NCBI GenBank assembly: GCA_031364845.1
Contig: JANLWX010000066.1
Location: 1 to 44,479 of the forward strand
Reading direction: 5' to 3'
DNA from: Candidatus Eiseniibacteriota bacterium
GTDB lineage: Bacteria; Eisenbacteria; RBG-16-71-46
DNA length: 44,479 nt
Of the stretch, positions 10,601 to 28,142 are shown piece after piece; the stretch's first letter is position 1; each line of letters begins with the position of its first letter. The position numbers and the translations under genes are program-made. A model generated the notes under the pieces. It ran no database searches, had not been told where the DNA came from, and saw only the letters and a program-made list of their open reading frames with translations.

Positions 10601-11950
10601 GATGCGTTCAACCTGCGCGGCCATGAGCGCCACGTAGCACAGGTCGCCGGTGACCGGATCGATCGCAAAGTCCACCGGCCCTTCGGCGCCGGTCGCGAAA
10701 TCCTGGATCGCGACCGCGCGGTCGTTCCCATCGAACGTGGCAACGCGGATCCAGTTGCCGCCGAAGTCGGCGAAGAACAGGCCGCCCTGGAACGGCGCGG
10801 GATAGCGCGATCCCGTGTAGAACGCGCCGACCATCGCGCAGTTGCCGATGAGTCCCGGCACCGGTGGGATCGCGACCGAAGCATCCGTGTGGTGCCAGGC
10901 GATGGTCGGCGCCGTGGGCTCGTCGAGAGGATCACAGCCGAGCCGCGAAGGTGTCGCGAGCGCGTACGAGTCCTGCGCCTGCGCTCCCTCGAAGCACGGC
11001 CAGCCGAAATCGTGTCCGCCTTCGCGGGCGACGTCCAGTTCCTCCCAGGTCACCCAGCCTACATCGCCGATGAACAAGGTCCCCGGCATGCCAAGCGCTG
11101 GATTCGAAGCACCGGTTCCCGGACGCACCGCCATGCGGAACGGATTGCGCATGCCGTACGCCCATACCCGCGAGCGCGCTGATCCGGGCGCTGCGGGATC
11201 GTAGAACGGATTGGACGGGAACCCGCGCCCGGTCGCCTTGTCGATCCTCAGGACTTTTCCGCTGAGGGACGACGGATCGCGTGCCCGGAACGCGCCGATA
11301 TCTTCCGCGGGATCGGTGCGCCCGGAACCGAAGCCCTCGGGATACATGCCGCCCGCGTCGGTCTCGTTGGAGTAGGCGCCATCGCCGATCGAGACCAGCA
11401 GGCTTCCGTCCACTCCAAAGCGCAGCGAGCCGACGCCGTGCGCCGACCCTGCGATCAGCGGGCCATGGGTCCAGTCCACCCCCATGAGAATCGTCCGTGA
11501 CGCGGCGATGGCCGTGGGGGCGACGAGGTCCGGGCTCAGCTGGTAGCGCGTGAGGCGGCCGAAGCTGAAGTCGCTCGATTCGACGCCGTTGCTGTCCGGA
11601 TCCACCGCGTAGAGGAGGTAGACGAACCGGTTGGTCGCGAACTGCGGATCGACCGCGATGCTCATCAGTCCGCAGTCCTGCGCGGCACCGACCTCCGGTT
11701 TTCCATCCCATACCGGCGCCGGCGCGCGCAGGCCATGATCGACGAGCCACACCCGGCCCTCCTTCTCCCCGACCAGCATGCGTCCATCGGGAAGGAACGC
11801 CAGACAGGTCGGGGTCGCCAAGCTCGCGTTCGTCACCGCCCGCTCGACGACGAACGACGAAGGCACCGCGGGTGCGGCGGACGCCGGCGTGGCCGCGGCG
11901 GCGGCGCACGCGGCGAGCGCGACGAGCCGCAAGAGACGGAATCCGGTCAC
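7670..11950 (-). CDS. Large secreted modular protein: PQQ-dependent sugar dehydrogenase (GSDH) propeller, PKD, duplicated beta-sandwich, CARDB, FN3-like, FlgD-Ig/T9SS-like CTD
   Basis: LAFLPDGRMLVGEK, G.L.FG.DG.L.VSIGDG, LSGKVLRI, AYGMRNPFR, GDVGW..WEE, FGWPCFEG; PKD WSFGDG...HTY..PG.Y; GTG start overlaps the upstream stop (GTGA). Confidence 0.85.
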   Translation of the reverse strand: MTGFRLLRLVALAACAAAAATPASAAPAVPSSFVVERAVTNASLATPTCLAFLPDGRMLVGEKEGRVWLVDHGLRAPAPVWDGKPEVGAAQDCGLMSIAVDPQFATNRFVYLLYAVDPDSNGVESSDFSFGRLTRYQLSPDLVAPTAIAASRTILMGVDWTHGPLIAGSAHGVGSLRFGVDGSLLVSIGDGAYSNETDAGGMYPEGFGSGRTDPAEDIGAFRARDPSSLSGKVLRIDKATGRGFPSNPFYDPAAPGSARSRVWAYGMRNPFRMAVRPGTGASNPALGMPGTLFIGDVGWVTWEELDVAREGGHDFGWPCFEGAQAQDSYALATPSRLGCDPLDEPTAPTIAWHHTDASVAIPPVPGLIGNCAMVGAFYTGSRYPAPFQGGLFFADFGGNWIRVATFDGNDRAVAIQDFATGAEGPVDFAIDPVTGDLCYVALMAAQVERIRYVGSGANEPGVSMSADRRVGTAPLTVGFSSAGSFSPIGRPLTFTWSFGDGSGDHQGHPEHTYAAPGFYQAVLTVNDDLGNELRDTIGIVATNGAPFPTTPVLDSFNRANGALGSAWESVLDGVSIRDSALVQSAGLATPVWREGWFGPMQEASITLHALTPSPHHTLLLKVQGDDPQAGNVQVRYHHGDRRLSVATYTPNSGWVTHGVLEPFTFDPGDRFGARAYANAIVEVYRNEEVVGTFSIDGWPYASGGGRIGLALENNKTSRLDDFRGGTADLGLNRVPQAIILRPGEGSFFVAGEPITLSAAGTDVEDDPSLLAFQWQVDQHHNNHTHPAVFTSDERSTSYVGEDHDDGTGTHLAVLLRVTDLGGASDTASVELYPEVDLEPASLTTTLPGAGANLELRFQIANHGRMPAPLSRWAVALDGTVIAEGDTVVPALDSVLIVRDVGPIATGAHALGIMVDSLGAVHETDEANNRASRTLSTDPEFPTTRVLDTFDRPDGGAGGSWVGNVTSLVIADSALSQNGAPSPSSVWSGLSFGPDQEAYFTFATIVPACRRYCLMLKVQGDSIAQGGIEVRYDGTLSTIQVATQQPGVGAKLRGTLGSVSFANGDRFGARARRDGTVEVFKNGSSLGSVLIGTWSFHGSGGRVGVNFAGATGSRIEDFGGGTFVAGPNLSPLAGFETGSATYHSAGDTVSFHSTSADGEEGIESLHHEWRGDLLHGDHEDLGVYTSELRDDRWVLADPEGGGTWRLVLRVTDSGGLSGTSEVLLLPESARPDAVPPVFTSPPDLAAYNVHALLHWQTDEPATGRVWWAPTASPADSVVLETPTATAHQINLTGLTPGRAYRFRVTATDSAGNRSVAPLDSFVTRASVTGTEESLPRVLELSRPAPNPSAGSVDLRLALPAETDVEFSVFDIQGRLVWRAPPRRWPAGTVDLRWPGVTRSGRRARAGIYLAQVQAGNITLRRRVAIVR

Positions 11951-12906
11951 CACCACCGGCTCGTCGCGGGCGGATCGCGAAACAACAGCGGCTGGAGGTG
12001 ACGCACGGCCTGCTCGATTCCTTCGATCGGCGCGAACGTCGGGTCCTCGTGCTCGATCGAGATCACGCCGCGGTAGCCCGAAGTCTGGAGCTCGGTGAGG
12101 ATCCGCTTCCACGACAGGTCGCCCCAGCCCGGCACGCGGAACCGAAACCCGCGTCCCGGCCGGTCCCACGCTCCGTGCGCCTGGAGTCCCGAGCGCGCGG
12201 CGTGGTGCGCCACCAGCTCACCGTCCTTCGCGTGGACGTGCACGATGCGATCGCCGAGTTCGGCGATGAACGCGACGGGATCGGTGCCGGCGATCATCAG
12301 ATTGGCGGGATCGAAGTTGAACGCGAGCGCGGGATGGTGGTCGACCGCTTCGAGCGCGAGCCGCGCGGTGTCGAGGTTGTAAGCGAACTGACGCGGATGG
12401 CATTCGATCGCGAACCGCACGCCGCGCCGCTGGAAATCGTCGAGCACGGGCATCATGCGCTCGCGGAACGCGGGCATCATGCGCTCGTAGCCGTCTTCGA
12501 CCGGCCACGGGAACCAGCGCGAATAGTCCTCGCACCCGGTGAAGCCGGACACGATGCCGACGCCCATCGCCTCCGCAAGCTCGGCGGTGAGCGCCAGGCG
12601 CTTGCGGGCGAATGCGATCTTCGCGGGCGCATCGCCTTCGAACATGACGTCGGTGTCGGCGCTATGAGGCCCGAAAAGCAGCTGGCCTTCGGCGTGGTTC
12701 GAGAGGGCGGAGATCGTGACGCCGGCCGTCGCGAAACTCCGCCGCAGGGCCTCGCCCCGGCCGGCCACGGCCGACTCGAGATCGACGAACGGGTTCGCCC
12801 GGTGAACCGGAAGCTCCATGGCCGAAAGACCGAGGGCGGCCACTTGTTTCAGCGCCGCATCGAGCGGCAGGTGATAAAATGCCTGGGCGCAGACGCCGAG
12901 TTTCAT
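11947..12906 (-). CDS. Sugar-phosphate isomerase/epimerase, xylose-isomerase-like TIM barrel (IolE/MocC-like)
   Basis: Metal-site motifs AIECHP, NFDPANL, HVHAKD, SIEHED; start re-called at ATG 12906 (MKLGV). Confidence 0.85.
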   Translation of the reverse strand: MKLGVCAQAFYHLPLDAALKQVAALGLSAMELPVHRANPFVDLESAVAGRGEALRRSFATAGVTISALSNHAEGQLLFGPHSADTDVMFEGDAPAKIAFARKRLALTAELAEAMGVGIVSGFTGCEDYSRWFPWPVEDGYERMMPAFRERMMPVLDDFQRRGVRFAIECHPRQFAYNLDTARLALEAVDHHPALAFNFDPANLMIAGTDPVAFIAELGDRIVHVHAKDGELVAHHAARSGLQAHGAWDRPGRGFRFRVPGWGDLSWKRILTELQTSGYRGVISIEHEDPTFAPIEGIEQAVRHLQPLLFRDPPATSRWW

Positions 12907-13174
12907 CGGACTCCGAGGGCTCGAAGCGTGGCATGAGGCAGGCGGGACTCGGGAGGCGGGACCCCGCACGCGGCAGAACCCAACCGGTAGCCGGCGCGCG
13001 GGCGCCCGAAACCGGTGACGGATTCTCTTACAGATTGCACAAGCTCAGTCGTTCCACGCAACCGGAAACGCCTCGACAGGCGCGGGACGAAGGTCGCATA
13101 GAGAGGGAGCCCGCTCGTTGCAATCGCGGCGATCCTGCGATGTCCGGTTTCGGATGTTGTCGTAACCGGCGAGA

Positions 13175-13190
13175 TGGTCCGACAATTGCC
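13175..13190 (+). promoter_or_regulatory. Putative sigma-54 -24/-12 promoter of the biosynthetic operon
   Basis: TGGTCCG-ACAA-TTGC, exact GG-N10-GC spacing, 50 bp upstream of the GTG at 13240; GGAGGA RBS follows. Confidence 0.55.
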
Positions 13191-13239
13191 CATGCGGTGG
13201 AGGGAACCCCGTCCATGACGTGTTCTGGAGGATACCTCC

Positions 13240-15402
13240 GTGCCGCGAACCGTTTTGATCACAGGAGCCCAGGGTTTCATCGGGCGCTATCTGGTCTCTC
13301 ATTGGCTGACGTCCTCACCCGGCGATCAGGTCATCGGGCTCGGTCGTTCACCGGGCAATCTCGAGCGCTTCACCCACTCCGTCACCTGGGGTGACGAGCG
13401 GGTCCCGGCCCCGCTGCCCGAGCCGCTGCGCGCGACGCTGAACGATGCGCGCTATCGCTATCACGCCGTGCCGCTCACCGATCGTGATGCGATGAAGGAC
13501 GTGCTCGAGCAGACGCGGCCCGACGTCGTCGTCCATCTGGCGGGCGCTCTGCGTGACGAAACCGCGGAGCATCTGTTCCGATCGAACGTGCTCGGGACCG
13601 AACAGCTTCTCGAGTGCATCGCGCTCGCAGGCATCGGCACGCCGCGCTTCATCCACGGATCGTCGGGCATCATCGGCGCCGATTCGAGCGGGAAACGGCT
13701 TCCGGTTGCGGACGATGCGATCGGATCGCCGGTCGATCTCTACACGGTCAGCAAGGCGGCGACCGAGCAGGTGGCGAGGATCGTGGCCGCGCGCCACGGA
13801 ATCCCGCTCGTGATCGCGCGGATCTTCAACGTCGTGGGTCCGGGTCAGGACGAGCGTCACATCTGCGGCTGGCTCGCGCGCCAGTGCGCGCACGTGATCA
13901 CAGGCCGCGCGGACGACACGATCCTGGTCGGACCGCGCGACACCACGCGTGACTTCGTCGATGTGCGCGATGTCGCCGCCGCGCTCCACCTGCTCGCCGA
14001 TCGAGGTGCCGCGGGCGAGACCTACAATGTCGCGACCGGCCGTGAGACCGCGATTGCCGAGGTCTTCGACGGTTTCATCGCACGGCTTCCGCGGCCGGTC
14101 ATGGTCACCGAACTGCCGGCGCGACCGAAAGACGTCATGCGTCACGTCGCCGACGTCTCGAAGATCGAAGCGCTCGGTCATCGGACCGCCGTGCCGCTCG
14201 CCGACAGCATCACCGAAACGCTGCAGTACTACCTCGACCTCGATGCGCGCGCGATCGCCCCGGCGCCGGCGCCCGATCGGGGTGCCGCCCAGTTCCTCGA
14301 AGTGGCGTTCCAACAGCGCCACGGCTACACGATTGAAGTCCGCAACGGACTGCTCACCGACCTTCCGGCCACGCTGCAGTGCGCGTTCCCCGACCGGCGC
14401 ATGGTCGTGCTGACTGACGACAAGGTGTCGGCGCTGGTGGGGCGCGACCTCACGGCGCGGATGCAGGGGTGCGGCATCTCGGCGGCCGAGATCGTGGTGC
14501 CCGAAGGCGAGCGTTCGAAGAGCTTCGAGACGCTGCGCGACGTCATCGCGCACATGTACGAACTCGGCTTCGATCGCCGCGCGCTGCTCGTCACGCTCGG
14601 CGGCGGGGTCATCATGGACCTCGGCGGTTTCGCCGCATCGTGCTACATGCGCGGCGTCGAATACGTGAATGTGCCGACCACGCTGCTCGCGCAGCACGAC
14701 GCCGCGATCGGCGGCAAGGTGGCGGTCAACGCGCCGTGGGCCAAGAATTTCGTGGGCGCATTCCATCACCCGCGCGCCGTCTATTGCGATCCCGCGGTGC
14801 TCACGTCGCTGCCGTTGCGCGATCTCAACGCCGGCATCGCGGAAGCCATCAAGGTCGGCCTGATCGCGGACGCGGCACTCATCCGTCTGCTCGAATCACA
14901 TGCGCATGCGATCCAGCACGATCGCGATCCGAAGCTGCTCGAAGAGATCGTGCTGCGTGCCGCGCGCGGCAAGGTCGACCTGCTCGCGCCGGATCCGCTC
15001 GAGACCGATCTGCGGCGGCCGCTCAATCTCGGTCACACGTTCGGCCACCCGCTGGAAACGCGGCTCGCGTATCAAGGACTGCTCCACGGTGAAGCGGTGG
15101 CGATGGGCATGGCGGTCGCGACCGCGGCCTCGGAGTCGATGGGGATCTGCGCGCCCGAGACCGCCGAGCGCATCTTCCGCCTGCTGCGCGCCTACGACCT
15201 GCCGCCCAAGATCGCTCTTTCGGATCTGCTCGCCGCGCGCGACAACGTGCGCGCGGTGCGGCTCGTGCGCGGCAATCGCCTGCACTTCGTGCTGCCCGCG
15301 GGCATCGGGTCGTACCGGATCGTTCCCGATCTGCCGGATCACGTGCTGACTGCGGCGATCGAGCACGTGGGCGCCCATCCGATGTTCTCGAGAGCTGTGT
15401 GA
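13240..15402 (+). CDS. Fusion: extended-SDR NAD-dependent epimerase/reductase (N-term) + DHQS-superfamily sugar-phosphate cyclase (C-term; 2-epi-valiolone-synthase-like candidate)
   Basis: N-term: ITGAQGFIG, YTVSK, RIFNVVGP, RDFVDVRD. C-term: GGGVIMD, YMRG, PTTLLAQHDAAIGGK, KNFVGAF, AEAIK, LNLGHTFGH, LHGEAVAMG. Confidence 0.9.
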   Translation: MPRTVLITGAQGFIGRYLVSHWLTSSPGDQVIGLGRSPGNLERFTHSVTWGDERVPAPLPEPLRATLNDARYRYHAVPLTDRDAMKDVLEQTRPDVVVHLAGALRDETAEHLFRSNVLGTEQLLECIALAGIGTPRFIHGSSGIIGADSSGKRLPVADDAIGSPVDLYTVSKAATEQVARIVAARHGIPLVIARIFNVVGPGQDERHICGWLARQCAHVITGRADDTILVGPRDTTRDFVDVRDVAAALHLLADRGAAGETYNVATGRETAIAEVFDGFIARLPRPVMVTELPARPKDVMRHVADVSKIEALGHRTAVPLADSITETLQYYLDLDARAIAPAPAPDRGAAQFLEVAFQQRHGYTIEVRNGLLTDLPATLQCAFPDRRMVVLTDDKVSALVGRDLTARMQGCGISAAEIVVPEGERSKSFETLRDVIAHMYELGFDRRALLVTLGGGVIMDLGGFAASCYMRGVEYVNVPTTLLAQHDAAIGGKVAVNAPWAKNFVGAFHHPRAVYCDPAVLTSLPLRDLNAGIAEAIKVGLIADAALIRLLESHAHAIQHDRDPKLLEEIVLRAARGKVDLLAPDPLETDLRRPLNLGHTFGHPLETRLAYQGLLHGEAVAMGMAVATAASESMGICAPETAERIFRLLRAYDLPPKIALSDLLAARDNVRAVRLVRGNRLHFVLPAGIGSYRIVPDLPDHVLTAAIEHVGAHPMFSRAV

Positions 15403-16292
15403 GCGTGAAAACGCTCGGGGTCGATCTCGGCGGCACGAAGGCGGCAGCCGGAATCGTGGATGGCGATGGCGCGCTCGAGTTGCGGGACACGACCGCGACC
15501 GGTGTTTCGTTCACACCCGCGATGCTGATCGACTTCATCGCCGCGGCCCGGGACGCGGCCGGCGGTTCGATCGAAACGATCGGCATCGGGTTTCCGGGGC
15601 TCGTCGAACCCGCGACCGGGCGCGTGTTGTCGTCGGTGATCATTCCGGGATGGGAGGGCGTCGAGTTGAGCGCGATGGTTCGGGATCGATTCGGCGTGCC
15701 GTGCGCGGTGGCGAACGACGTCGACAACGCCGCGCGCGGTGAAGCGCACGTGCGCGGACTGTCGCATGACGATCTGTTCTTCGTTTCGGTCGGCACCGGC
15801 ATCGGCGGTGCCTGGTGGTCGCGGGGATCGGTGCGCGGCGGCGCGTCGGGTCTCGCGGGAGAGATCGGCCACACCGTCGTGAGCGACCATCCGCGATGCG
15901 CGTGCGGCCGTCACGGATGTGTCGGCGCGCTCGCCTCGGGGCGCGCGATCGAGGCACGGCTCGGGCTCGAACGCGGCGGACTCGAAGCGCGCATGCGTGC
16001 CGCGTCGCCGGACGATCAGGCCGTCGTGCGCGAGGCGGGGAGCATGCTCGGACGCGCGCTTGCGAATCTGATCCATCTCCTGCATCCCGCGCTGGTCGTG
16101 ATCGGCGGCGGGGTTGCGCGGATACCGGGCTATGTCGAAGCCGCGGCCGCGAGCGCGGAGGCGGAAGTGATGGCCGACTTCCGTCCGCGCCTGCGCATCG
16201 AACGATCGCGCGCCGGCTGCGATGCCGGTGTGATCGGCAGCGCACTGCTCGGCCGATCGTGCGCCGGCGCTCGGGACGGGCTCCGCACATGA
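15399..16292 (+). CDS. ROK-family sugar/cyclitol kinase
   Basis: GVDLGGTK, GIGFPG, NDVDNAA, VGTGIGG, AGEIGH, CACGRHGC; no HTH; GTGA overlap. Confidence 0.9.
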   Translation: MSVKTLGVDLGGTKAAAGIVDGDGALELRDTTATGVSFTPAMLIDFIAAARDAAGGSIETIGIGFPGLVEPATGRVLSSVIIPGWEGVELSAMVRDRFGVPCAVANDVDNAARGEAHVRGLSHDDLFFVSVGTGIGGAWWSRGSVRGGASGLAGEIGHTVVSDHPRCACGRHGCVGALASGRAIEARLGLERGGLEARMRAASPDDQAVVREAGSMLGRALANLIHLLHPALVVIGGGVARIPGYVEAAAASAEAEVMADFRPRLRIERSRAGCDAGVIGSALLGRSCAGARDGLRT

Positions 16293-17188
16293 TCCGCCCG
16301 ATCGAGCGTGGGCGCTGCGTGCTGTGCGGAAGCTCGGATGGCGACGTCGTGCTCCAGGAAGCCGGCTGGTCCGGTCGCGAGTGCGCGTGCGGCGTGGTCT
16401 ACATCGATCCGCGGCCCGGCGAGCACGCGATCGATCCGACGCACGACATGCACGTCGACGACTACTACGAGCTTCCGTCGCGCGATCGCATGGACTGGAT
16501 CGCACACGCCCGCGGGCCGTGCCGCCTGCTCGAAGTGGGCGGAGGCAGCGGGCACCTGCTCCAGCGCGCGCGGGAGCGCGGCTATCAGGTGCAGGCGATC
16601 GAGCCCAACCCCGAGTGCGCGCGCGCACTCGAAGCACTCGGCATTCCGGTCGAGCGCCGGATCGTCGAGGAGTCGCAGTTGCCCGACGGTTCGGCCGACG
16701 TCGTGTTCCACGTCGATCTGCTGAGCCACTTCCCCGATCCGGTGCGCGCGCTCACGGCGATGAAGCGCATCGCAGGACCCAAGGGTCTGTTGTGCTTCGA
16801 GGTCGGAGTGTTCGGCGGGCTTTCGCGGGGCTGGTATCCGTGGATCGGGCGGCCGGGCTTTCCGGAACACCTGTGGTTCTACTCGGAGCCGGCGATCGAG
16901 AAGGTACTGGCGGGCGCCGGGCTCGAGATCGTGGAGCGCAAGCGCTTCGGACTGTTCCCCTCGACGATCCTGAGCTCGGTGGGCCGCAGGGTGTTCGGCC
17001 GGACGATGTCGCCGACCGCCACCGCGTCGTCCGCGGCGCCGCCCGGAGCCCCGGTCGCCTCATCGGGGATCGGACGCCACTACGGTCACCTCCAGTACCT
17101 GCTGCGCTACCGGTGGGGCGCGCGGATTCCCGCATGGGGGCCGCACGCATTGTTCGTCACCGCACGCGCCGGGAACGACGCTCGATGA
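16289..17188 (+). CDS. Class I SAM-dependent methyltransferase with N-terminal Cys (Zn-ribbon-like) motifs
   Basis: CVLC...CACG, LLEVGGGSG, DLLSHFPDP, PEHLWFY; start re-called at ATG 16289 (ATGA overlap). Confidence 0.85.
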   Translation: MIRPIERGRCVLCGSSDGDVVLQEAGWSGRECACGVVYIDPRPGEHAIDPTHDMHVDDYYELPSRDRMDWIAHARGPCRLLEVGGGSGHLLQRARERGYQVQAIEPNPECARALEALGIPVERRIVEESQLPDGSADVVFHVDLLSHFPDPVRALTAMKRIAGPKGLLCFEVGVFGGLSRGWYPWIGRPGFPEHLWFYSEPAIEKVLAGAGLEIVERKRFGLFPSTILSSVGRRVFGRTMSPTATASSAAPPGAPVASSGIGRHYGHLQYLLRYRWGARIPAWGPHALFVTARAGNDAR

Positions 17189-18462
17189 CGCCGAAGGCTG
17201 CGGCGCCCGAGGCGATGTTCTTCGTTCACATGCTGCCCCGGTTCGTCAGCGACTTCGCGATGCTCGCGAATCAGCTCGCGGAGTCCGGCGCGCGCGTCAC
17301 CGTGTTCGCGCCGGGCTCGGCGGCTCCGAGTCCGAAGCCCGCCACGCCGGCGACTCCCGCGGAAGGCACCGACGCCCCGTGGTGGAAGCGCCGCGAGGTC
17401 CTCGATGCCGCGCGCGCCCGGCTCGATCCGGCGATCGCAGTCGAGCGGCTTCCGCTCCAGCGCGACCGCGTGACGCCGTGGGCCGCGCTGTCGACCGCGC
17501 TGCTCGCGTGGCGGATGGGACGGCGGCATCCGGACGCGATGTTCTTCATGTGGACCGTCATTCCGTTCGTGCTCGCGGGCCTGCCGCTGCGGCTGCTCGG
17601 CCGGCGTTGCGTGTTCATGGTGACGGGACTCGGCACGGTGTTCGGGTCCGACGCGTGGCGCGTGCGAATGATCCGGCCGTTCGTCGTGCTGCTCTATGGT
17701 TACCTGTTTCGTGCGGCGAACAGCCGCGTGGTCGTCCACAACGGCGAGGACAAGGACTTCCTGGTCGCGCGCCTCGGACTGCGGTCCGAGCACGTGATGG
17801 TCACACCGGGATGCGGTGTCGATCCCGACGAGTATCCGTGGATCGAAGCCGCGCGCAATCCGCGGCCCGTGATCTACGCACCGGTGCGGCTCATTCCCGA
17901 AAAAGGCGTCGAGGACGCGGTCGAGGCATCGCGGATCCTTCACGAGCAGGGCGTGGAGCACGAACTGTGGTTCAGTTCCGAGATCGACCGCGGCAACCCG
18001 ATGGCGTTCCAGGATGGCGATGTCGCGCGCATGAAGGCGAAGAGCCCGTGTGTGCGTTTCCTCGGCCATCATCCGAGCGTGGTGCCGCTCTATCAGGCCT
18101 GCGATGTGATGTGCATGCCGACGTGCTATCGCGAAGGGCTCCCGACCGCGATCCTCGAATCGGCCGCGTGCGGCCGCGCGATGGTCGCGACCGACAACGT
18201 CGGCTGCCGCGAGTTCGTGTTCCACGAAGACACGGGTCTCATCGTTCCTCGCCACGACCCGGTCGCACTCGCGGCGGCGCTCGAGCGCATGTGCCAAGAT
18301 GCGGCACTCAGGGAGCGGCTGCGGCGCCGGGCATACGAGGCGTTCCGCGCACGATTCACCAAGCAGATCATGGTCGATCGCACCTGGACCCTGATCGAGA
18401 GTCTCGGCTGGCCGCTGCCGAACCCTCGTACGACCAGTACTACCGGCGCGGAGATCGCGTGA
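17185..18462 (+). CDS. GT4-family (GT-B) glycosyltransferase
   Basis: VTGLG.VF, HNGED, GCGVD, RLIPEKG, YREGLPTAILESAACGR, TDNVGCRE; start re-called at ATG 17185. Confidence 0.9.
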   Translation: MTPKAAAPEAMFFVHMLPRFVSDFAMLANQLAESGARVTVFAPGSAAPSPKPATPATPAEGTDAPWWKRREVLDAARARLDPAIAVERLPLQRDRVTPWAALSTALLAWRMGRRHPDAMFFMWTVIPFVLAGLPLRLLGRRCVFMVTGLGTVFGSDAWRVRMIRPFVVLLYGYLFRAANSRVVVHNGEDKDFLVARLGLRSEHVMVTPGCGVDPDEYPWIEAARNPRPVIYAPVRLIPEKGVEDAVEASRILHEQGVEHELWFSSEIDRGNPMAFQDGDVARMKAKSPCVRFLGHHPSVVPLYQACDVMCMPTCYREGLPTAILESAACGRAMVATDNVGCREFVFHEDTGLIVPRHDPVALAAALERMCQDAALRERLRRRAYEAFRARFTKQIMVDRTWTLIESLGWPLPNPRTTSTTGAEIA

Positions 18463-18821
18463 CACCGTTCGACCGATGCAACCTGGACGAACTGCCGTGG
18501 ACTTCGATCGTCGCCCACGGCGGCGAAGGGCACATCCGATTCCACCGCATCGCCGATGACGCGGCGACGAACGGAGCGTGCCACTTCATCGACGTGGCCG
18601 AGCTTCCGCCGGGTGCATCGATCGGCCGCCACGCGCACACCGAACACGAGGAGGAGTTCTACCTCGTGCTGTCGGGAAGCGGCGACATGTGGCGCGATGG
18701 CGAATCGTTTCCGGTGCGCGCGGGCGATGTGGTGCGCAATCGACCGGGCGGTGCGCATGGGCTCGTGAATTCCGGGTCGTCGCCGCTGCGGATCTTCGTC
18801 TTCGAAGTGCGGGTGCCATGA
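18459..18821 (+). CDS. Cupin-domain protein
   Basis: PGASIGRHAH..EEEFYLVLSG.G...GD......G..HGL.N; GTG start overlaps the GT stop. Confidence 0.85.
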   Translation: MTPFDRCNLDELPWTSIVAHGGEGHIRFHRIADDAATNGACHFIDVAELPPGASIGRHAHTEHEEEFYLVLSGSGDMWRDGESFPVRAGDVVRNRPGGAHGLVNSGSSPLRIFVFEVRVP

Positions 18822-19909
18822 GCGGTGCCGGGCTCACCGTCCTGATCATGGCCGGCGGCCGGGGCGAGCGTATGCTCGCCTCCGGTGTTCCGGTGACGAA
18901 GCCGCTCGTGCCCGTGCAGGGCGTGCCGTTGCTCGAGCGCAACCTGTGGTCGATCGCGCGCCTCGGTGTCGACCGCGTCGTGGTCTCGATTGCGCGCGGG
19001 GCCGATCCGATCGAAGCGTGCGCGCGCGAGGCGGGCGCTGCACTCGGCCGCGCGTCGTCATGGCCGCTGGAGGTGCTGGTCGAGGAGGCGCCGCTCGGCA
19101 ACATCGGCTGCGCGGGTGCCTTACGCGGTCGCGCGCGCGAGGTGCTGCTGCTCTACGCCGACAACCTGACGCTGCTGCCGCTCGACGATCTGCTCGCGCA
19201 CCATCGCGAATCCCGCGCCGATCTCACGCTCGCGACCCACCGCCAGACATTCCGCATGCCGTTCGGCGCGCTCGACCTCGCGCACGGGCGCGTGACCGGG
19301 TATCGGGAGAAGCCGGAGTCCGAGTACGTCGTGAGCAGTGCGGTGTGCGTGCTCGGTGCGGCGGCGCTCGACCGGCTCGAAGGACAGCCGGCCGGGCTCG
19401 CCGATCTCTCCGCGGCGTTGATCGGCGATGGAAACGTCGTGGTCGCGTACGAGCACGCGTCGCCGTGGATCGACGTCAACGACGCGGCCGGCGCGGCCGC
19501 CGCGGAGGCGATGGTGCGCGATCATCGCGCGGCGTTCGAATGCTGGGCGCCGCGCGTGGATGCCGCGCGCGCGCTGTGGATCGCGCGCGGGCCTTCGGGA
19601 TTCATCGCCGGGCATGGCGAAGGCGACGGCGTGCTGCCGGTCAAAGAGTGCGAGGATCGCGAGGACGCCGCGGCGCTGGTGGCGCGCATGCGCACCGCCG
19701 CGGGCCTTGCCGCCGTCTCTGAAACCGAGATCGTCGAGTTCGACGACGTGACTCCGGACGGACGCTTCGTGCGCACCTACGCTCACATCGACTCCGATCT
19801 GCCGCACGTTTCCCCGAAGCCCCCGTGGTCGTGGCGCTCCGAAGCGGGCGTCCTCCGTCAACCGGAGGCCGCGCGTGCGCTCGCGCGGGCGGGGCTTGGG
19901 AGTAGCTGA
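18818..19909 (+). CDS. Sugar-phosphate nucleotidyltransferase with a C-terminal extension (degenerate Nudix-like)
   Basis: IMAGGRGERM...KPLV, EEAPLGNIG, YADNL, YREKP, WIDVND; start re-called at ATG 18818. Confidence 0.85.
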   Translation: MSGAGLTVLIMAGGRGERMLASGVPVTKPLVPVQGVPLLERNLWSIARLGVDRVVVSIARGADPIEACAREAGAALGRASSWPLEVLVEEAPLGNIGCAGALRGRAREVLLLYADNLTLLPLDDLLAHHRESRADLTLATHRQTFRMPFGALDLAHGRVTGYREKPESEYVVSSAVCVLGAAALDRLEGQPAGLADLSAALIGDGNVVVAYEHASPWIDVNDAAGAAAAEAMVRDHRAAFECWAPRVDAARALWIARGPSGFIAGHGEGDGVLPVKECEDREDAAALVARMRTAAGLAAVSETEIVEFDDVTPDGRFVRTYAHIDSDLPHVSPKPPWSWRSEAGVLRQPEAARALARAGLGSS

Positions 19910-19931
19910 TCCGGTGACGCCCGCCGGACGC

Positions 19932-21134
19932 ATGCGGTGCGCGGTGTTCGGCGGCGGACCCTATGTCCTGCGCCTGCTCGCGCTGATGGCGCATGAGCGC
20001 GGTCTTCCGGCGATCGACTGGGCGCTGGTCGCCACACGGCCCGGCCCTCTGAAGACGGTGGCGGATCGCGCGCGGATGGATCTGCGCGTCACGCAACCGG
20101 AGTGGACGGTATTCGACACGCTCGATCCGGAGCGGGCGCTCGCGGGGGCCGATGCGATCGTCGTGCTCGTTCGCTCCGGCGGACTGAGCGCGCGCGAGTG
20201 GGACGAATCGTTTCCCGCGCGCCACGGACTCATCGGGGACGAAGGCGTCGGCATCGGCGGCATGGCAGACGCCTGGCGGACGCTGCCGATGTTCGATGAT
20301 CTCGCGCGCCGCATCCGCGCAAACGCGCCGCGCGCGTTTGTGTTCAATCTGACCGCGCCACTCGGGATCACGACCCGTGTCCTGCTCGATCACGAACTCG
20401 CGACGATCGGCGTCTGCGAACTGCCACAGACGACACGCGATCGGCTTGGCGGCGGGGATGAGGACCTCGAGTACGGCGGCCTCAACCACCTCGGATGGTT
20501 CTGGCCGCGCGCCGCCGCGGGACACGCGCTGCTCGAGGACGCGATCGATCGGGGGCTCGTCGAGCGCGCGACGTACGACCACTTCGGGGCGGCGCCGTTG
20601 TCCTACTACTACGACGTCTACGATCCCGCCGCGGCGGCGCGCCTCGGCCGGTCACGGCCGCCCGGTCGCGCGCAGGCGCTGGCGCGGCTCAAGGAAGGAA
20701 TCCATCACGCGCTGCGCGAACAGCCGGCCGCGGTGGCCGGCCGTATCGAGGAACGTGCGACGCCGTGGTTCGAACACGCGCTGGTTCCCGCACTCGCGGC
20801 GGCACTGCGCGGGGAGCCGCACGAGACCTTCGGGAATCTCGCGAACCTGGCGTCGTGGTCGGAACTCCCGCCGCGCGCGGTCGTCGAGCATCGACTGCGA
20901 ACCGGCCACGGCGCGGTGACCGGGATTCCGCCGGGCGCGCCGCCGCCGCGCGTCGCCGAATTCCTCGCCCGCGTTTCCGCGAGCGAGCAACTTCTCTACC
21001 GGGCGGCGCAGCAGCGCGATCACCGCCTCCTCGCGGAAGCGATCGCGGCTCAGCCGCTACCGATCCCCGCTGCGCGAATTCCCGAGATCCTCGCCGATCT
21101 CGTCGCCGCGCCGGGAGCGATCGGACCGTCGTAG
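19932..21134 (+). CDS. Glycoside hydrolase family 4-like NAD+/Mn2+-dependent enzyme (6-phospho-glucosidase-like, divergent)
   Basis: VFGGG, RSGGLSAREWDESFPARHGLIGDEGVGIGG..AWRTLP, NLTAP, GVCELP, GLNHLGW, LSYYY, AVVE. Confidence 0.85.
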   Translation: MRCAVFGGGPYVLRLLALMAHERGLPAIDWALVATRPGPLKTVADRARMDLRVTQPEWTVFDTLDPERALAGADAIVVLVRSGGLSAREWDESFPARHGLIGDEGVGIGGMADAWRTLPMFDDLARRIRANAPRAFVFNLTAPLGITTRVLLDHELATIGVCELPQTTRDRLGGGDEDLEYGGLNHLGWFWPRAAAGHALLEDAIDRGLVERATYDHFGAAPLSYYYDVYDPAAAARLGRSRPPGRAQALARLKEGIHHALREQPAAVAGRIEERATPWFEHALVPALAAALRGEPHETFGNLANLASWSELPPRAVVEHRLRTGHGAVTGIPPGAPPPRVAEFLARVSASEQLLYRAAQQRDHRLLAEAIAAQPLPIPAARIPEILADLVAAPGAIGPS

Positions 21135-21281
21135 GCGCCACCTCCGCGTGCATGCCGCAAGTGGTCCGCGTGCATCGTGCATGAAGGTGGCGCCACGCCC
21201 GCGCGCCGATTGCGGGTTCGGGACCACGCAACTCGAGCGATTCACGCGAGTTCCTCCAACCCCTCCGGATCGCGCCGTCCG

Positions 21282-21297
21282 CGGCCCGTCCAATGCA
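21282..21297 (+). promoter_or_regulatory. Possible sigma-54 promoter of the downstream secreted-protein gene
   Basis: CGGCCCG-TCCA-ATGC, GG-N10-GC; weaker match in a GC-rich background. Confidence 0.25.
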
Positions 21298-21433
21298 TTG
21301 CGCTGCGCGGCGCTCCGCCGCCGGGGATGATCCTTTCGGTCCGCACCTCGCTCACCCTCTCGAGGAACACCATGCCTGCTGTCGTGCACCGCCGTGCACC
21401 GCGACACGCGAGAATCCATACGTCGGTGGCCGC

Positions 21434-22867
21434 GTGAACGCGCTCGCCACGAACCCGCGCGCCCGGACGCTGGCCTTCGTGCTCGCGATCGCGGCCGGCC
21501 TCACGCCGGTGACCGCCTCGGCGCGCGTCCTGCCCGGCTTCATCGACATGATGACCGACTCCAACCGCATCGTGTCGCGGCCCTCGACGGTGCGTCCTTC
21601 GTATCTGATCCCGGTCACCGAGCCGACGTTCGGCACGCAACTGATGCGGATCGCCGGCAACACGGGGACCTCGATCGGCGGCGGGGTGTCGGGGACATGG
21701 GGCAGCGACGTGCGGCACCACTACTCGAAAGAACAGCCGTGGAACGCGGACGGCTCGCTGATGGCGATCTTCAACGGCAGCGACATCGTGTTCCTCGACG
21801 GTGAGACGTATCAGCCGAAGTTCGCACGCTGCGACAACTACCCGCAGAACGACGACCGCTGGCACCCGAGCCTCGCGCACAAGAACGAGCGCATCAACGT
21901 GCGCGGCACCCAGTTGATCTGGCACGACGTCGTGAATTGCGTGAGGACCCGCGAGTGGACGCTGCCGTTTTCCGTCAACGACTTCGGTCCGAGCGAAGGC
22001 AACACGTCGAACGACGGACGCTACATCGCGCTCACCGACGGCGCGCGGATGTTCGTGGTCGACATGGATCCGCAGGCACCACTGGCTCCCTATCCGTCAT
22101 CGCGCATCGGCCCTTCGGTCCGCATCGACGAATGCGGGTTGTCCGGCGGATGCCGGATCGACTGGATCTCGATGTCGGCATCCGGCAAGTACGTCGTCAT
22201 CAACTACAACGGCGACCATCCGCGCGTGTTCGATGTGAACCCGTCCACGCTCGAGCTCACGCCACGCGTGATGCCGTCGGGATCTCCGCGCTGTTCGGGC
22301 GGAGCGGCCGCCAAAGGCTTCATCTACGACGTCGGGCATTCCGACATGACGCTGAATCCGTTCGACGGCAACGAGGACGTGATCATCGGCCAGGAGCACT
22401 GCGGTAATCAGGGCAGCACCGTCAACGGACAGCTCATGGGCGGCGTGGCGATGGTCCGCCTCAAGGACGGCGTGGTCACCTCGCTGACGAATCCCGACCA
22501 GGAGGACAACCCGCACCACATCTCGACCCGCAACTACGACCGTCCCGGATGGGCCTATGTCGGTTATCGCGTCGACCACAACGGCAAGTACACCGACGAA
22601 ATCATCGCGGTGAAGATGGACGGCAGCAAGACCGTGCAGCGGTTCGCGCACAAGCACAGCGCGTTCGAATCCGACTACCGCAGCGAGTCGCACGCGGTGC
22701 CCTCGCGCGACGGGCGGCGTGTGGTGTTCGGAAGCAACTGGACCCGCAACTGTCTCTCGTGCGGTTCGTCCTCGGACATCAAGCCGTTCCTCGTCGACGC
22801 ACGGAGCGGTGTCGTCGTGCCCGACCTGATTCCCCCCGACGCGATCACGGACCTCGAGTTGCCCTGA
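21434..22867 (+). CDS. Secreted beta-propeller-like hypothetical protein
   Basis: Signal peptide (RTLAFVLAIAAGLTPVTASA); blade-like motifs YSKEQPWNADGS, SNDGRYIAL, MSASGKYV, HAVPSRDGRRVVFGSNW; start uncertain (GTG 21434). Confidence 0.7.
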   Translation: MNALATNPRARTLAFVLAIAAGLTPVTASARVLPGFIDMMTDSNRIVSRPSTVRPSYLIPVTEPTFGTQLMRIAGNTGTSIGGGVSGTWGSDVRHHYSKEQPWNADGSLMAIFNGSDIVFLDGETYQPKFARCDNYPQNDDRWHPSLAHKNERINVRGTQLIWHDVVNCVRTREWTLPFSVNDFGPSEGNTSNDGRYIALTDGARMFVVDMDPQAPLAPYPSSRIGPSVRIDECGLSGGCRIDWISMSASGKYVVINYNGDHPRVFDVNPSTLELTPRVMPSGSPRCSGGAAAKGFIYDVGHSDMTLNPFDGNEDVIIGQEHCGNQGSTVNGQLMGGVAMVRLKDGVVTSLTNPDQEDNPHHISTRNYDRPGWAYVGYRVDHNGKYTDEIIAVKMDGSKTVQRFAHKHSAFESDYRSESHAVPSRDGRRVVFGSNWTRNCLSCGSSSDIKPFLVDARSGVVVPDLIPPDAITDLELP

Positions 22868-22971
22868 GTCACGGGTGCGGCCGCTTGCCGGGCGTGCGCC
22901 GCGGGCGCTAGCGTTCGTGGTATGAGCCGCCCGTTCCCTCCTCCGTACCCGCAGGCGGCGGAGTGCGCCGC

Positions 22972-23715
22972 ATGCTGAGCATCGAGTTCGCCGGCTGCAC
23001 GGGGGCCGGCAAGACCACGCTCGCACGCGAGACGCGCGCCGCGATGGAGTCGCGCGGCATCCCGGTGTTCACGCCGTTCGAGCTGGTGTTCGGACGCCGC
23101 GCGCGGGCAATCGTCCGCGACGAACGGACGCAGAACCTGATGCTCGACGTCGTGTTGCTTCCGTTCGCGCTGGCGTTCTGCGTGAGGCACACGCCGGTCA
23201 CGTGGCTGCTGCTCTCCCATTTGCTGTGGCGCCCGCCGCCGCCGGTCCGCGCCGCGGCACGGCTGCGCAGCATCGTCGCCAAGATGGGGGTCCACACGCT
23301 GCACCGCGTGTTCCGGGCGCGGCCGGGCGTGGTGCTGATCGACGAGGGCATGCTGCACTCGGTCCATCATGTGTTCGTCTACACCGCAACGACCGCGACC
23401 GCGCCGACGCTCGAGGCGTTCGCATCGCGGGTCCCGCTGTGCGACCTCGTCGTCATCGTGAACGCCACGGTCGAGGAGATCGTGGCCACGACTGCGACAC
23501 GGCCCGACCCGCCCATTCGCAACGCGGAACCCGCGTGGGTCGCCGAGTCGGCACGCCGGGCGCTCGAGATGTTCGAAGTGCTCGGGCGCCACGAACGCAT
23601 TCGCCGCGTCTCCACCGATCTTCGCTTGAGTCCGGGCGGAGCCGCCCAGGCGGGAGCGGCAACGCTCGTGACGGATCGCGCTTCGGCGCTGCTGCGAGAG
23701 CGGCGCGGGCGCTGA
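22972..23715 (+). CDS. P-loop NTPase / nucleotide-kinase-like protein
   Basis: IEFAGCTGAGKTT Walker A, VVLIDEG Walker-B-like, DLVVIV; one hydrophobic stretch. Confidence 0.7.
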   Translation: MLSIEFAGCTGAGKTTLARETRAAMESRGIPVFTPFELVFGRRARAIVRDERTQNLMLDVVLLPFALAFCVRHTPVTWLLLSHLLWRPPPPVRAAARLRSIVAKMGVHTLHRVFRARPGVVLIDEGMLHSVHHVFVYTATTATAPTLEAFASRVPLCDLVVIVNATVEEIVATTATRPDPPIRNAEPAWVAESARRALEMFEVLGRHERIRRVSTDLRLSPGGAAQAGAATLVTDRASALLRERRGR

Positions 23716-25565: not shown

Positions 25566-25610
25566 GGCAGCAGAAATGATCTCCCGCGTTGCGGACAATG
25601 TCCATGGCTA

Positions 25611-27920: not shown

Positions 27921-28142
27921 GGCGGCTCCATCGTGGCAGCGGTAGTGTCGGGTTTCGATCTCCACAGGCGAAGCATGCCAACACGCGCAGGGTCATGGGC
28001 GTGTCATGCCCGCCATAACCCCTCCCAGCGCGGCAAGTTGCGCTCATGGTCGCGGCAATTGTGCGGGCCGGATGCGTGCCGGTTCCGGCAAAGAAATCGC
28101 CCGCCTGGCGACGGCCGGGCGGGCGATGGAATCGAGCAGCGA

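What the first reader, a model, noticed from the sequence alone, without database searches (positions are those of the whole stretch)
11947..23715. Candidate undescribed C7-cyclitol (carbasugar) or pseudo-glycoside biosynthetic gene cluster
Seen: six genes joined by 4-bp ATGA/GTGA overlaps (SDR::cyclase, ROK kinase, methyltransferase, GT4, cupin, nucleotidyltransferase), a GH4-like gene 22 bp further on, then a secreted propeller and a P-loop kinase. A TIM-barrel sugar-phosphate epimerase is transcribed divergently. Known: acarbose and validamycin pathways combine a sedoheptulose-7-phosphate cyclase (AcbC/ValA), a ROK cyclitol kinase (AcbM/ValC), an epimerase, a nucleotidyltransferase (AcbR/ValB) and a GT-B (pseudo)glycosyltransferase. 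Inference: this locus makes an NDP-activated carbasugar and transfers it to an acceptor. There is no aminotransferase, so the product would be N-free and possibly O-methylated, either a small molecule or a surface-glycan decoration. The cupin, GH4 and SDR fusion differ from the actinomycete clusters as I know them.
Basis: partly seen in the sequence, partly recalled or inferred. Interest (0 to 1): 0.88.

Follow-up and report, generated by a model that had tools for sequence, protein, structure and literature searches.

The report
Nitrogen-free EVS-type carbasugar gene cassette
Eight neighbouring genes, kept together in shuffled order in many uncultured bacteria, likely turn sedoheptulose 7-phosphate into a nitrogen-free seven-carbon ring sugar mimic, which would then be nucleotide-activated and attached to an unknown acceptor; the ring-forming enzyme likely belongs to a type for which no end product was found in the papers searched.

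Summary
In detail: five 4-bp overlaps, a 22-bp gap and all domain calls check out. Its motifs match 2-epi-valiolone synthase (EVS), though a tree does not join it firmly to the characterised EVS lineages. The cassette is conserved: in 15 well-covered related loci ROK, cupin and the GH4-like gene occur in 15, and TIM barrel, nucleotidyltransferase and a GT4 in 14 each. The propeller and P-loop genes occur in only 1 and are probably not part of it. An aminotransferase/radical-SAM/kinase-like module is present in 11 of 15 and absent here; the 4 loci without it all carry the RMD-like reductase fusion, so this is the nitrogen-free branch. Best reading (0.5): an NDP-, probably GDP-linked carbasugar donor for the GT4. 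Main rival (0.3): the cyclitol is the acceptor of an ordinary sugar. No step is tested. This scan noted a probably related aminated planctomycete operon before on other DNA (e1-2105770). New variant of a known kind; interest 0.6.

The parts
11947..12906 (-). TIM-barrel (AP_endonuc_2) enzyme; predicted keto-cyclitol dehydratase or epimerase; core gene
   Evidence: PF01261 E 3e-34; PDB hits 2zds, 8ro4 2-hydroxy-3-keto-glucal hydratase, IolE, Art22; orthologue in 14 of 15 well-covered loci, on another contig in G133
13240..14250 (+). N-terminal extended SDR domain of the fusion, RMD-like; predicted NADPH ketoreductase
   Evidence: Best PDB hits are two GDP-6-deoxy-4-hexulose reductases, 2pk3 and 6x3b; S141, Y168, K172 kept in 111, 106, 104 of 120 family members; fused in 8 of 15 well-covered loci
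14290..15402 (+). C-terminal sugar-phosphate cyclase domain, EVS-like (2-epi-valiolone synthase type)
   Evidence: Motifs match Amir_2000 and Staur_3140 as printed in PMC4426668 supplement 1; outside DHQS (100/98) and EEVS (100/100) groups; 8 of 14 diagnostic positions EVS-like, 3 aroB-like
15399..16292 (+). ROK kinase; predicted cyclitol 7-kinase; core gene
   Evidence: PF00480 E 8e-56; in 25 of 27 related loci, the 2 misses end within 200 bp of the cyclase
16289..17188 (+). Class I SAM methyltransferase; variable tailoring gene
   Evidence: PF13489; in 4 of 15 well-covered loci
17185..18462 (+). GT4 glycosyltransferase, PglA-like subtype
   Evidence: PF00534/PF13692; three best PDB rows are PglA, E about 1e-16; this subtype in 2 of 15 loci, some GT4 in 14 of 15
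18459..18821 (+). Cupin; predicted cyclitol-phosphate epimerase or isomerase; core gene
   Evidence: PF07883; 15 of 15 well-covered loci; best of 13 plasmid matches (50%) lies directly behind a sedoheptulose 7-phosphate cyclase
18818..19909 (+). Sugar-1-phosphate nucleotidyltransferase with an eroded C-terminal NUDIX domain (from about 19544)
   Evidence: PF00483/PF12804; weak best hits to MurU and mannose-1-phosphate guanylyltransferases; intact NUDIX in relatives, remnant here; 14 of 15 loci
19932..21134 (+). Divergent GH4 (6-phospho-glycosidase-like) NAD+/metal enzyme; core gene
   Evidence: PF02056/PF11975; family profile hits 6-phospho-glucosidases at E 1e-48; C162, E163, H186, Y225, R81, R275 invariant in 11 of 11 aligned members; 15 of 15 loci
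21434..22867 (+). Putative secreted protein of a multi-copy family; neighbour, probably not part of the cassette (start uncertain)
   Evidence: 7 matching copies in the genome; near the cassette in 1 of 15 loci, the same-genus G133
22972..23715 (+). P-loop (AAA_33/thymidylate-kinase-like) protein; doubtful member
   Evidence: ESM Atlas 0.97 to AAA_33-bearing clusters; homologue only in G133, split over two frames; no significant likeness to the thymidylate-kinase-domain protein of aminated loci (best E 0.28)

Best explanation
The eight genes from 11947 to 21134 form a conserved cassette that likely cyclises sedoheptulose 7-phosphate to 2-epi-valiolone, likely phosphorylates, dehydrates and reduces it to a nitrogen-free carbasugar phosphate, and would activate this as a nucleotide diphosphate (probably GDP) for transfer by the GT4 to an unknown acceptor. 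Proposed order, every step inferred: cyclase domain makes the ring; ROK adds the 7-phosphate; cupin epimerises or isomerises the C1-C2 ketol; the TIM barrel removes the C5 hydroxyl to give an enone; the fused RMD-like SDR reduces the ketone that the DegT enzyme aminates in sister clusters; a host phosphohexomutase moves the phosphate to C1; the nucleotidyltransferase makes the NDP-carbasugar; GT4 transfers it and the methyltransferase caps a hydroxyl. The GH4-like enzyme most likely uses its NAD+/metal oxidation-elimination chemistry on a 7-phosphorylated cyclitol, to set stereochemistry or to cleave a pseudo-glycoside. Shown: gene content, conservation, residue patterns. Acceptor: a lipid-linked or surface glycan is slightly favoured over a secreted small molecule.
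For: Separate aroB beside aroQ on C67. EVS-type motifs and residues; P0167, used as stand-in, is a Stigmatella aurantiaca protein of the same length and motifs as Staur_3140. Core genes in 14-15 of 15 well-covered loci, in several different gene orders. G133 keeps a 68% identical TIM orthologue on another contig. Cupin sits directly before the nucleotidyltransferase in 14 of the 14 well-covered loci that have both. All 7 loci without the SDR fusion have DegT+rSAM+kinase-like genes; all 4 without those genes have the fusion. Precedent: GDP-valienol in acarbose (PMC9200736); PgmA plus ValB make GDP-valienol from the 7-phosphate, and ValL forms C-O pseudo-glycosides (PMC12041759). Host has 2 phosphohexomutase-family genes and a transaldolase. 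GT4 is closest to PglA.
Against: The cyclase passes the NCBIfam aroB cut-off (311.6 against 305) and its best PDB hits are DHQS. The tree leaves the family in an unresolved fork with EVS-motif proteins, at 39-41% identity to the two stand-ins. G1009, a single-contig genome, has the cassette without the nucleotidyltransferase and none was found with an orthologue query. Three non-orthologous GT4 subtypes replace one another, and the known pseudo-glycosyltransferase ValL is GT20. RMD-type SDRs act on NDP-bound ketones, so the proposed step order may be wrong. No conserved 1-kinase lies in this branch. The loci are not independent (the four Myxococcota loci are one class).
Confidence: 0.5

Rival explanations
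1. The cyclitol is the acceptor, not the donor: the EVS branch makes a cyclitol phosphate, the nucleotidyltransferase and SDRs make an ordinary deoxy or amino NDP-sugar, GT4 joins them to a small glycosyl-cyclitol (streptol-glucoside- or aminoglycoside-like), and the GH4 enzyme releases or recycles the cyclitol from the phosphorylated glycoside.
For: SDR is RMD-like and the second SDR of relatives is LegB/4,6-dehydratase-like; G1009 lacks the nucleotidyltransferase but keeps a GT4; GH4 keeps the 6-phospho-glycosidase residue set; streptol glucoside is a known product type (PMC12904256 section 14); GT4 enzymes with cyclitol acceptors such as MshA and BtrM are recalled.
Against: This copy has no 4,6-dehydratase in the cassette to feed an RMD; the SDR is fused to the cyclase in 115 of the 120 best hits (length filter favours fusions); no transporter was recognised among the window's genes scanned, whereas both EEVS control clusters have one.
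Confidence: 0.3
2. The cyclase is a new sugar-phosphate cyclase with another substrate or product than EVS, and the cassette builds a different carbocycle.
For: The family is its own clade (100/98) not joined to the EVS stand-ins; EboD was predicted to use sedoheptulose 7-phosphate (PMC5133447) and later shown to use mannose 6-phosphate (PMC12904256).
Against: At the 16 listed catalytic and motif positions the window equals P0167 in 16 and P0155 in 15.
Confidence: 0.12
3. The cyclase is an EEVS as in acarbose and validamycin.
For: Same superfamily; ValA 4p53 hit at E 8e-43; the cupin also occurs beside an EEVS-like gene.
Against: K578, L595, N596, H603 where three EEVS-type controls have M, V, D and N/P/P; EEVS group separate at 100/100.
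Confidence: 0.03
4. A second aroB that happens to lie among sugar-catabolic and surface-glycan genes.
For: TIGR01357 score just above cut-off; ROK, GH4 and TIM barrels are common in sugar catabolism (established knowledge).
Against: Lacks the aroB DKK motif (D91%, K98% in 80 aroB-type loci; V-R-L here); outside the DHQS group; co-conserved with biosynthetic genes in several orders.
Confidence: 0.03

Closest known systems
2-epi-valiolone synthase (EVS): Amir_2000 (Actinosynnema mirum), Staur_3140 (Stigmatella aurantiaca)
   Same: DP(Y/F/L)ExDLRRxLNxGH and RxxR..G motifs, GGKV, DHQS-like K/N/H catalytic set without DKK.
   Different: 39-41% identity to the stand-ins; own clade; fused to an RMD-like SDR. 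The neighbourhoods of the two characterised genes were not seen (primary papers not held or not looked up).
GDP-valienol branch of acarbose (AcbC, AcbM, AcbO, AcbL, AcbN, AcbU, AcbJ, AcbR, AcbS) and validamycin (ValA, ValC, PgmA, ValB, ValL)
   Same: Cyclase, 7-kinase, epimerase/dehydratase, reductase, nucleotidyltransferase, GT-B transferase logic (PMC9200736 part 1 of 8; PMC12041759 passages).
   Different: EVS-like not EEVS; GT4 not GT20; cupin, GH4-like and NUDIX parts; no aminotransferase, no AcbU/AcbJ pair, no transporter recognised.
GDP-D-rhamnose / GDP-linked deoxy-amino-sugar pathways (ManC, Gmd, Rmd, Gmm, LegB, DegT enzymes)
   Same: RMD-like SDR, guanylyltransferase-like enzyme with adjacent cupin, NUDIX fusion, LegB-like second SDR and DegT in relatives; the manno configuration of the 2-epi cyclitol is inferred from its name and established chemistry.
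   Different: No member passes a curated cut-off for these families; they travel with a cyclase, ROK, GH4 and TIM barrel.
GH4 6-phospho-glucosidases (GlvA, BglT, 5c3m/1s6y)
   Same: Full-length profile match; metal Cys/His, Tyr and phosphate-binding Arg positions kept (residue roles recalled).
   Different: NP motif is AP, GGGS has lost Ser in this branch, GQET is GDEG; lies in a biosynthetic cassette without PTS genes.
Kirkamide and streptol-glucoside clusters of Burkholderia leaf symbionts
   Same: Sugar-phosphate cyclase plus ROK core (bioRxiv 2022.09.27.509721 passages).
   Different: EEVS-based with HAD hydrolase and aminotransferases; their gene tables are images and could not be read, so overlap in cupin or GH4 genes is untested (recalled as possible).

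Membership tests
[quoted passage not shown]
   equal to P0167 and P0155 at all of these positions.
EVS (2-epi-valiolone synthase) | DPxE/DLRR and RxxR motifs in place of the aroB DExE and DKK motifs | tested here: met
   P586 120/120, R674 119/120, R677 120/120 in the family. Motifs taken by eye from the printed sequences, not from the published fingerprint table.
EVS (2-epi-valiolone synthase) | One clade with the characterised EVS enzymes | tested here: inconclusive
   unresolved fork; P0155 is only a motif-based stand-in for Amir_2000.
EVS (2-epi-valiolone synthase) | Converts sedoheptulose 7-phosphate to 2-epi-valiolone | not testable with these tools
   Needs enzyme assay.
EEVS (AcbC/ValA) | Met, Asp and His replacements (MLEEL..NLxE, DF/YGH, RHR.G) | tested here: not met
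   K578, N596, L595, H603; separate branch 100/100.
DHQS (AroB) | NCBIfam TIGR01357 above cut-off | tested here: met
   311.6 against 305.
DHQS (AroB) | DKK motif and place in the DHQS clade | tested here: not met
EboD / DEIS | TIGR04425 cut-off and ebo gene context | tested here: not met
   190.7 against 400 (that this model is EboD is recalled); no UbiA or TatD neighbour.
Acarbose/validamycin-type pseudo-glycoside cluster | Cyclase, kinase, nucleotidyltransferase and GT-B together | tested here: met
Acarbose/validamycin-type pseudo-glycoside cluster | EEVS start, aminotransferase and C-N pseudo-glycosyltransferase | tested here: not met
   EVS-like; no DegT or rSAM orthologue in the cassette, rSAM orthologue not found in G000 or G133; GT4 subtype PglA-like.
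GH4 6-phospho-glycosidase | NAD-binding fold with Cys/His metal ligands, Tyr base, Arg phosphate ligands | tested here: met
   by alignment; no structure model obtained.
GH4 6-phospho-glycosidase | Conserved NP sugar-binding motif and hydrolysis of a 6-phospho-glycoside | tested here: inconclusive
   Asn is Ala in 11 of 11 aligned members; activity untested.

The most novel reading that the evidence does not exclude
A GDP-mannose-type toolkit (guanylyltransferase, cupin, NUDIX, RMD-like reductase) has been re-aimed at an EVS-made ring to give a GDP-carba-mannose-type donor, which a PglA-like GT4 builds into a lipid-linked surface glycan through a glycosidase-proof C-O pseudo-glycosidic bond, while the GH4-like enzyme is a redox-elimination pseudo-glycosidase; the SDR fusion versus the DegT module switches the cassette between hydroxy and amino products. 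This would be the first defined fate of 2-epi-valiolone.
Probability: 0.2. Interest if true: 0.85.

Novelty: new variant of a known kind. Interest (0 to 1): 0.6.

Why it matters
EVS products were described as uncharacterised in 2016 (PMC5133447), and none of the four library papers that name 2-epi-valiolone assigns it an end product in the passages read. This cassette is compact, soluble by prediction, recurs in several phyla, and is the simplest branch of its family, so it makes that question testable in vitro or in E. coli. It also offers a GH4 fold in a biosynthetic role and a natural hydroxy/amino switch on a glycosidase-inhibitor-type scaffold. It is not a new kind of system: C7-cyclitol clusters with NDP activation are known.

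Tried and rejected
Genome-contig scan with the cyclase domain: all 80 loci kept were 33-42% aroB-type hits; used only as the aroB comparison set. Plasmid searches: no orthologue of the GH4-like gene or TIM barrel (best identities under 40%); the EVS-motif cyclase on a Streptomyces plasmid has a different context. Viral contigs: 0 matches to the family pattern. Promoter/terminator scan: 0 promoter-like and 4 terminator-like sites, at chance level. No RNA holder listed. A fold of the GH4 alignment had not finished at the last look; no model is used, so the active-site geometry is open. The propeller fold was not modelled. Window P-loop as orthologue of the relatives' kinase-like gene: rejected. 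L142 (G732) was a borderline cyclase hit with no cassette genes and was left out of the counts. One search resampled the same phylum as and added nothing. Papers not held: 10.1021/bi5003508, 10.1021/acschembio.7b00066, 10.1038/ismej.2016.27, 10.1111/1462-2920.16292. Searches without useful result. Findings look-ups were empty.


Full report
Observation. Pfam confirms SDR plus dehydroquinate-synthase domains in one 720-residue protein, ROK, methyltransferase, GT4, cupin, nucleotidyltransferase, GH4 and AP_endonuc_2; the P-loop gene has one sub-threshold hit and the 'propeller' none. GC is 0.66-0.72 in 1-kb steps against 0.663 for the genome, and third-position GC 0.79-0.86 against 0.87-0.88 for three housekeeping genes of the window, so there is no strong compositional break.

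The cyclase is not the housekeeping aroB. The 97% complete genome has two PF01761 matches. The other, on C67, has the DKK motif and is followed by a type II dehydroquinase-like gene (that label is read from the sequence and recalled). Against this: the window's cyclase scores 311.6 on the aroB model (cut-off 305) and its best PDB hits are DHQS enzymes. PMC5133447 (passages) warns that EVS enzymes look like DHQS on such evidence.

The cyclase is EVS-like, not EEVS. Supplement 1 of PMC4426668 (search and part 10 of 14) prints Amir_2000 and Staur_3140, with DP(Y/F)E.DLRR.LN.GH and R..R.G motifs, and AcbC, with MLEEL..NLWE and DYGH. The window follows the first pattern. I used two tool-given stand-ins: P0167, a Stigmatella aurantiaca protein with the length and motifs of Staur_3140, and P0155, Amir_2000-like by motif only. 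At 14 columns where 80 aroB-type loci are at least 80% conserved and both stand-ins differ, the window matches a stand-in at 8, aroB at 3 and neither at 3; the C67 copy gives 2, 9 and 3. In a 44-row IQ-TREE tree the family (100/98), the DHQS group (100/98) and three EEVS-type controls (100/100) are each one side of a branch, but the family sits in an unresolved fork with the EVS-motif proteins (groups were labelled by motif beforehand, 44 of 371 domains used). Identity to the stand-ins is 39-41%. So EEVS and DHQS are excluded; EVS activity is likely, not shown. The published fingerprint papers were not held.

The cassette is conserved. Of the 120 best protein hits, 115 carry the same SDR-cyclase fusion (the length filter favours fusions); labelled ones are Gemmatimonadales, Polarisedimenticolia and Kofleriaceae. 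Orthologues were found in 2 of 206 genomes of the window's phylum (G000, G133), 4 of 401 sampled Myxococcota (all one class), 6 of 401 sampled Planctomycetota with cassette genes (7 hits, one without) and 16 metagenome stretches; none in viral contigs. Of these 27 loci, 15 have at least 2.7 kb upstream and 7 kb downstream of the cyclase. In them: ROK 15, cupin 15, GH4-like 15, TIM 14, nucleotidyltransferase 14, some GT4 14, fused SDR 8, methyltransferase 4, propeller 1, P-loop 1. The 12 shorter loci were left out of this count; they show no conflicting order. Misses: G133 keeps its TIM orthologue (68%) on another contig, a few genes from WecA-like, GT4 and O-antigen-ligase-like genes; G1009 has no nucleotidyltransferase with an orthologue query; L141 is cut before its likely GT4. 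The propeller family has 7 copies in the genome and the P-loop homologue in G133 is split over two frames, so both are treated as neighbours.

Two branches. DegT aminotransferase, radical SAM/SPASM enzyme and a thymidylate-kinase-domain protein occur together in 11 of the 15 loci and are all absent from 4 and from the window; none of the 15 has only part of the set. All 7 loci without the SDR fusion have the set; all 4 without it have the fusion; 4 have both. The rSAM orthologue was not found anywhere in G000 or G133. The simplest reading (inference; lineages are few and related) is that SDR and DegT offer alternative fates, hydroxyl or amine, for one ketone, and that the window holds the nitrogen-free branch.

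The enzymes. The SDR's best solved relatives are RMD enzymes; it keeps S, Y and K of the triad and lacks the acid that follows Ser/Thr in 4,6-dehydratases (role recalled). The TIM barrel is nearest to 2zds, a 2-hydroxy-3-keto-glucal hydratase, IolE and Art22, all keto-sugar or keto-cyclitol enzymes as far as named or recalled. The cupin's best plasmid match lies directly behind a sedoheptulose 7-phosphate cyclase. The nucleotidyltransferase hits MurU and mannose-1-phosphate guanylyltransferases weakly, so GTP is a guess; relatives have an intact NUDIX tail and the window a remnant. The GH4-like family keeps Cys, Glu, His, Tyr and two Arg positions in 11 of 11 aligned members but has Ala for the Asn of the NP motif. 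The GT4 is nearest to PglA, but two other GT4 subtypes stand in elsewhere.

Mechanism. By analogy with acarbose (PMC9200736, part 1 of 8) and validamycin (PMC12041759, passages), I propose ring formation, 7-phosphorylation, epimerisation and dehydration, reduction, phosphate shift by a host mutase (two candidates; transaldolase present), NDP activation and transfer (0.5). The second paper notes that the olefin of GDP-valienol may enable pseudo-glycosyl transfer, which fits a dehydratase in the core. The main rival has the cyclitol as acceptor of an ordinary NDP-sugar and GH4 as releasing enzyme (0.3); the G1009 loss and the RMD likeness support it. A different cyclase product (0.12) has the EboD precedent. 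No transporter was recognised among the window genes scanned or the relatives' neighbours scanned (not exhaustive), while both EEVS control clusters have one; with the PglA likeness this tilts slightly to a cell-associated product.

Novelty. Searches for 2-epi-valiolone (4 papers), Amir_2000/Staur_3140 (1 paper), cyclitol+cupin+valiolone+epimerase, carbasugar clusters and kirkamide clusters listed no description of this gene set. The library lacks most subscription papers, including the primary EVS papers and kirkamide gene tables (bioRxiv tables are images, supplements closed), so the claim is limited. PMC12904256 (abstract, passages, section 14) and bioRxiv 2022.09.27.509721 (passages) give the known product types. 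This scan earlier noted a planctomycete EVS operon (e1-2105770); loci L138-L141 look like it and share the core, though I could not confirm they are the same operon. The unpublished genome G073 enters only the tally. Verdict: a real, mobile, modular C7-cyclitol cassette; new variant of a known kind; interest 0.6.

Noticed in passing
window 21434-22867; genome C80, C95 (two), C198, C174, C28; L098, L124: A family of about 430-residue domains without Pfam match, 7 copies in the genome, standalone or inside very large putative secreted proteins; ESM Atlas finds only unnamed clusters (0.97) with lead-level likeness to TolB/oligogalacturonate-lyase propellers.
   Followed up: partly
window 7670-12169(-), 23760-25598(-), 25611-27965(-): The cassette is flanked by large putative secreted proteins (sorbosone-dehydrogenase/PKD/CARDB; dimethylformamidase-beta-like; DUF5916), two with FlgD-type tails; this style is recalled as typical of Eisenbacteria-like genomes.
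   Followed up: no
L101:6590-8497, L104, L120-L123, L136-L141: A conserved protein of about 600 residues with a central thymidylate-kinase-like domain and unannotated flanks always follows the TIM gene in aminated loci; a candidate cyclitol 1-kinase.
   Followed up: partly
L125 (NZ_CP109456.1, around 207610-214846): A Streptomyces plasmid carries an EVS-motif cyclase with NRPS condensation and adenylation genes, an NDP-sugar synthase, a thiamine enzyme, a BadF kinase and an inositol monophosphatase: a separate EVS cluster type.
   Followed up: no
P0138 (2653 aa): A very large protein that contains an EEVS-type cyclase domain.
   Followed up: no
L098:5238-5866: The G133 homologue of the window's P-loop gene is split over two reading frames (decay or assembly error).
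   Followed up: partly
L128:7192-8151 (G133:C6): G133's TIM orthologue lies apart from its cassette, a few genes from WecA-like, GT4 and O-antigen-ligase-like genes.
   Followed up: partly
genome C67:14697-15929: A PilT-like ATPase gene near aroB appears as two consecutive ORFs (257 and 141 aa).
   Followed up: no
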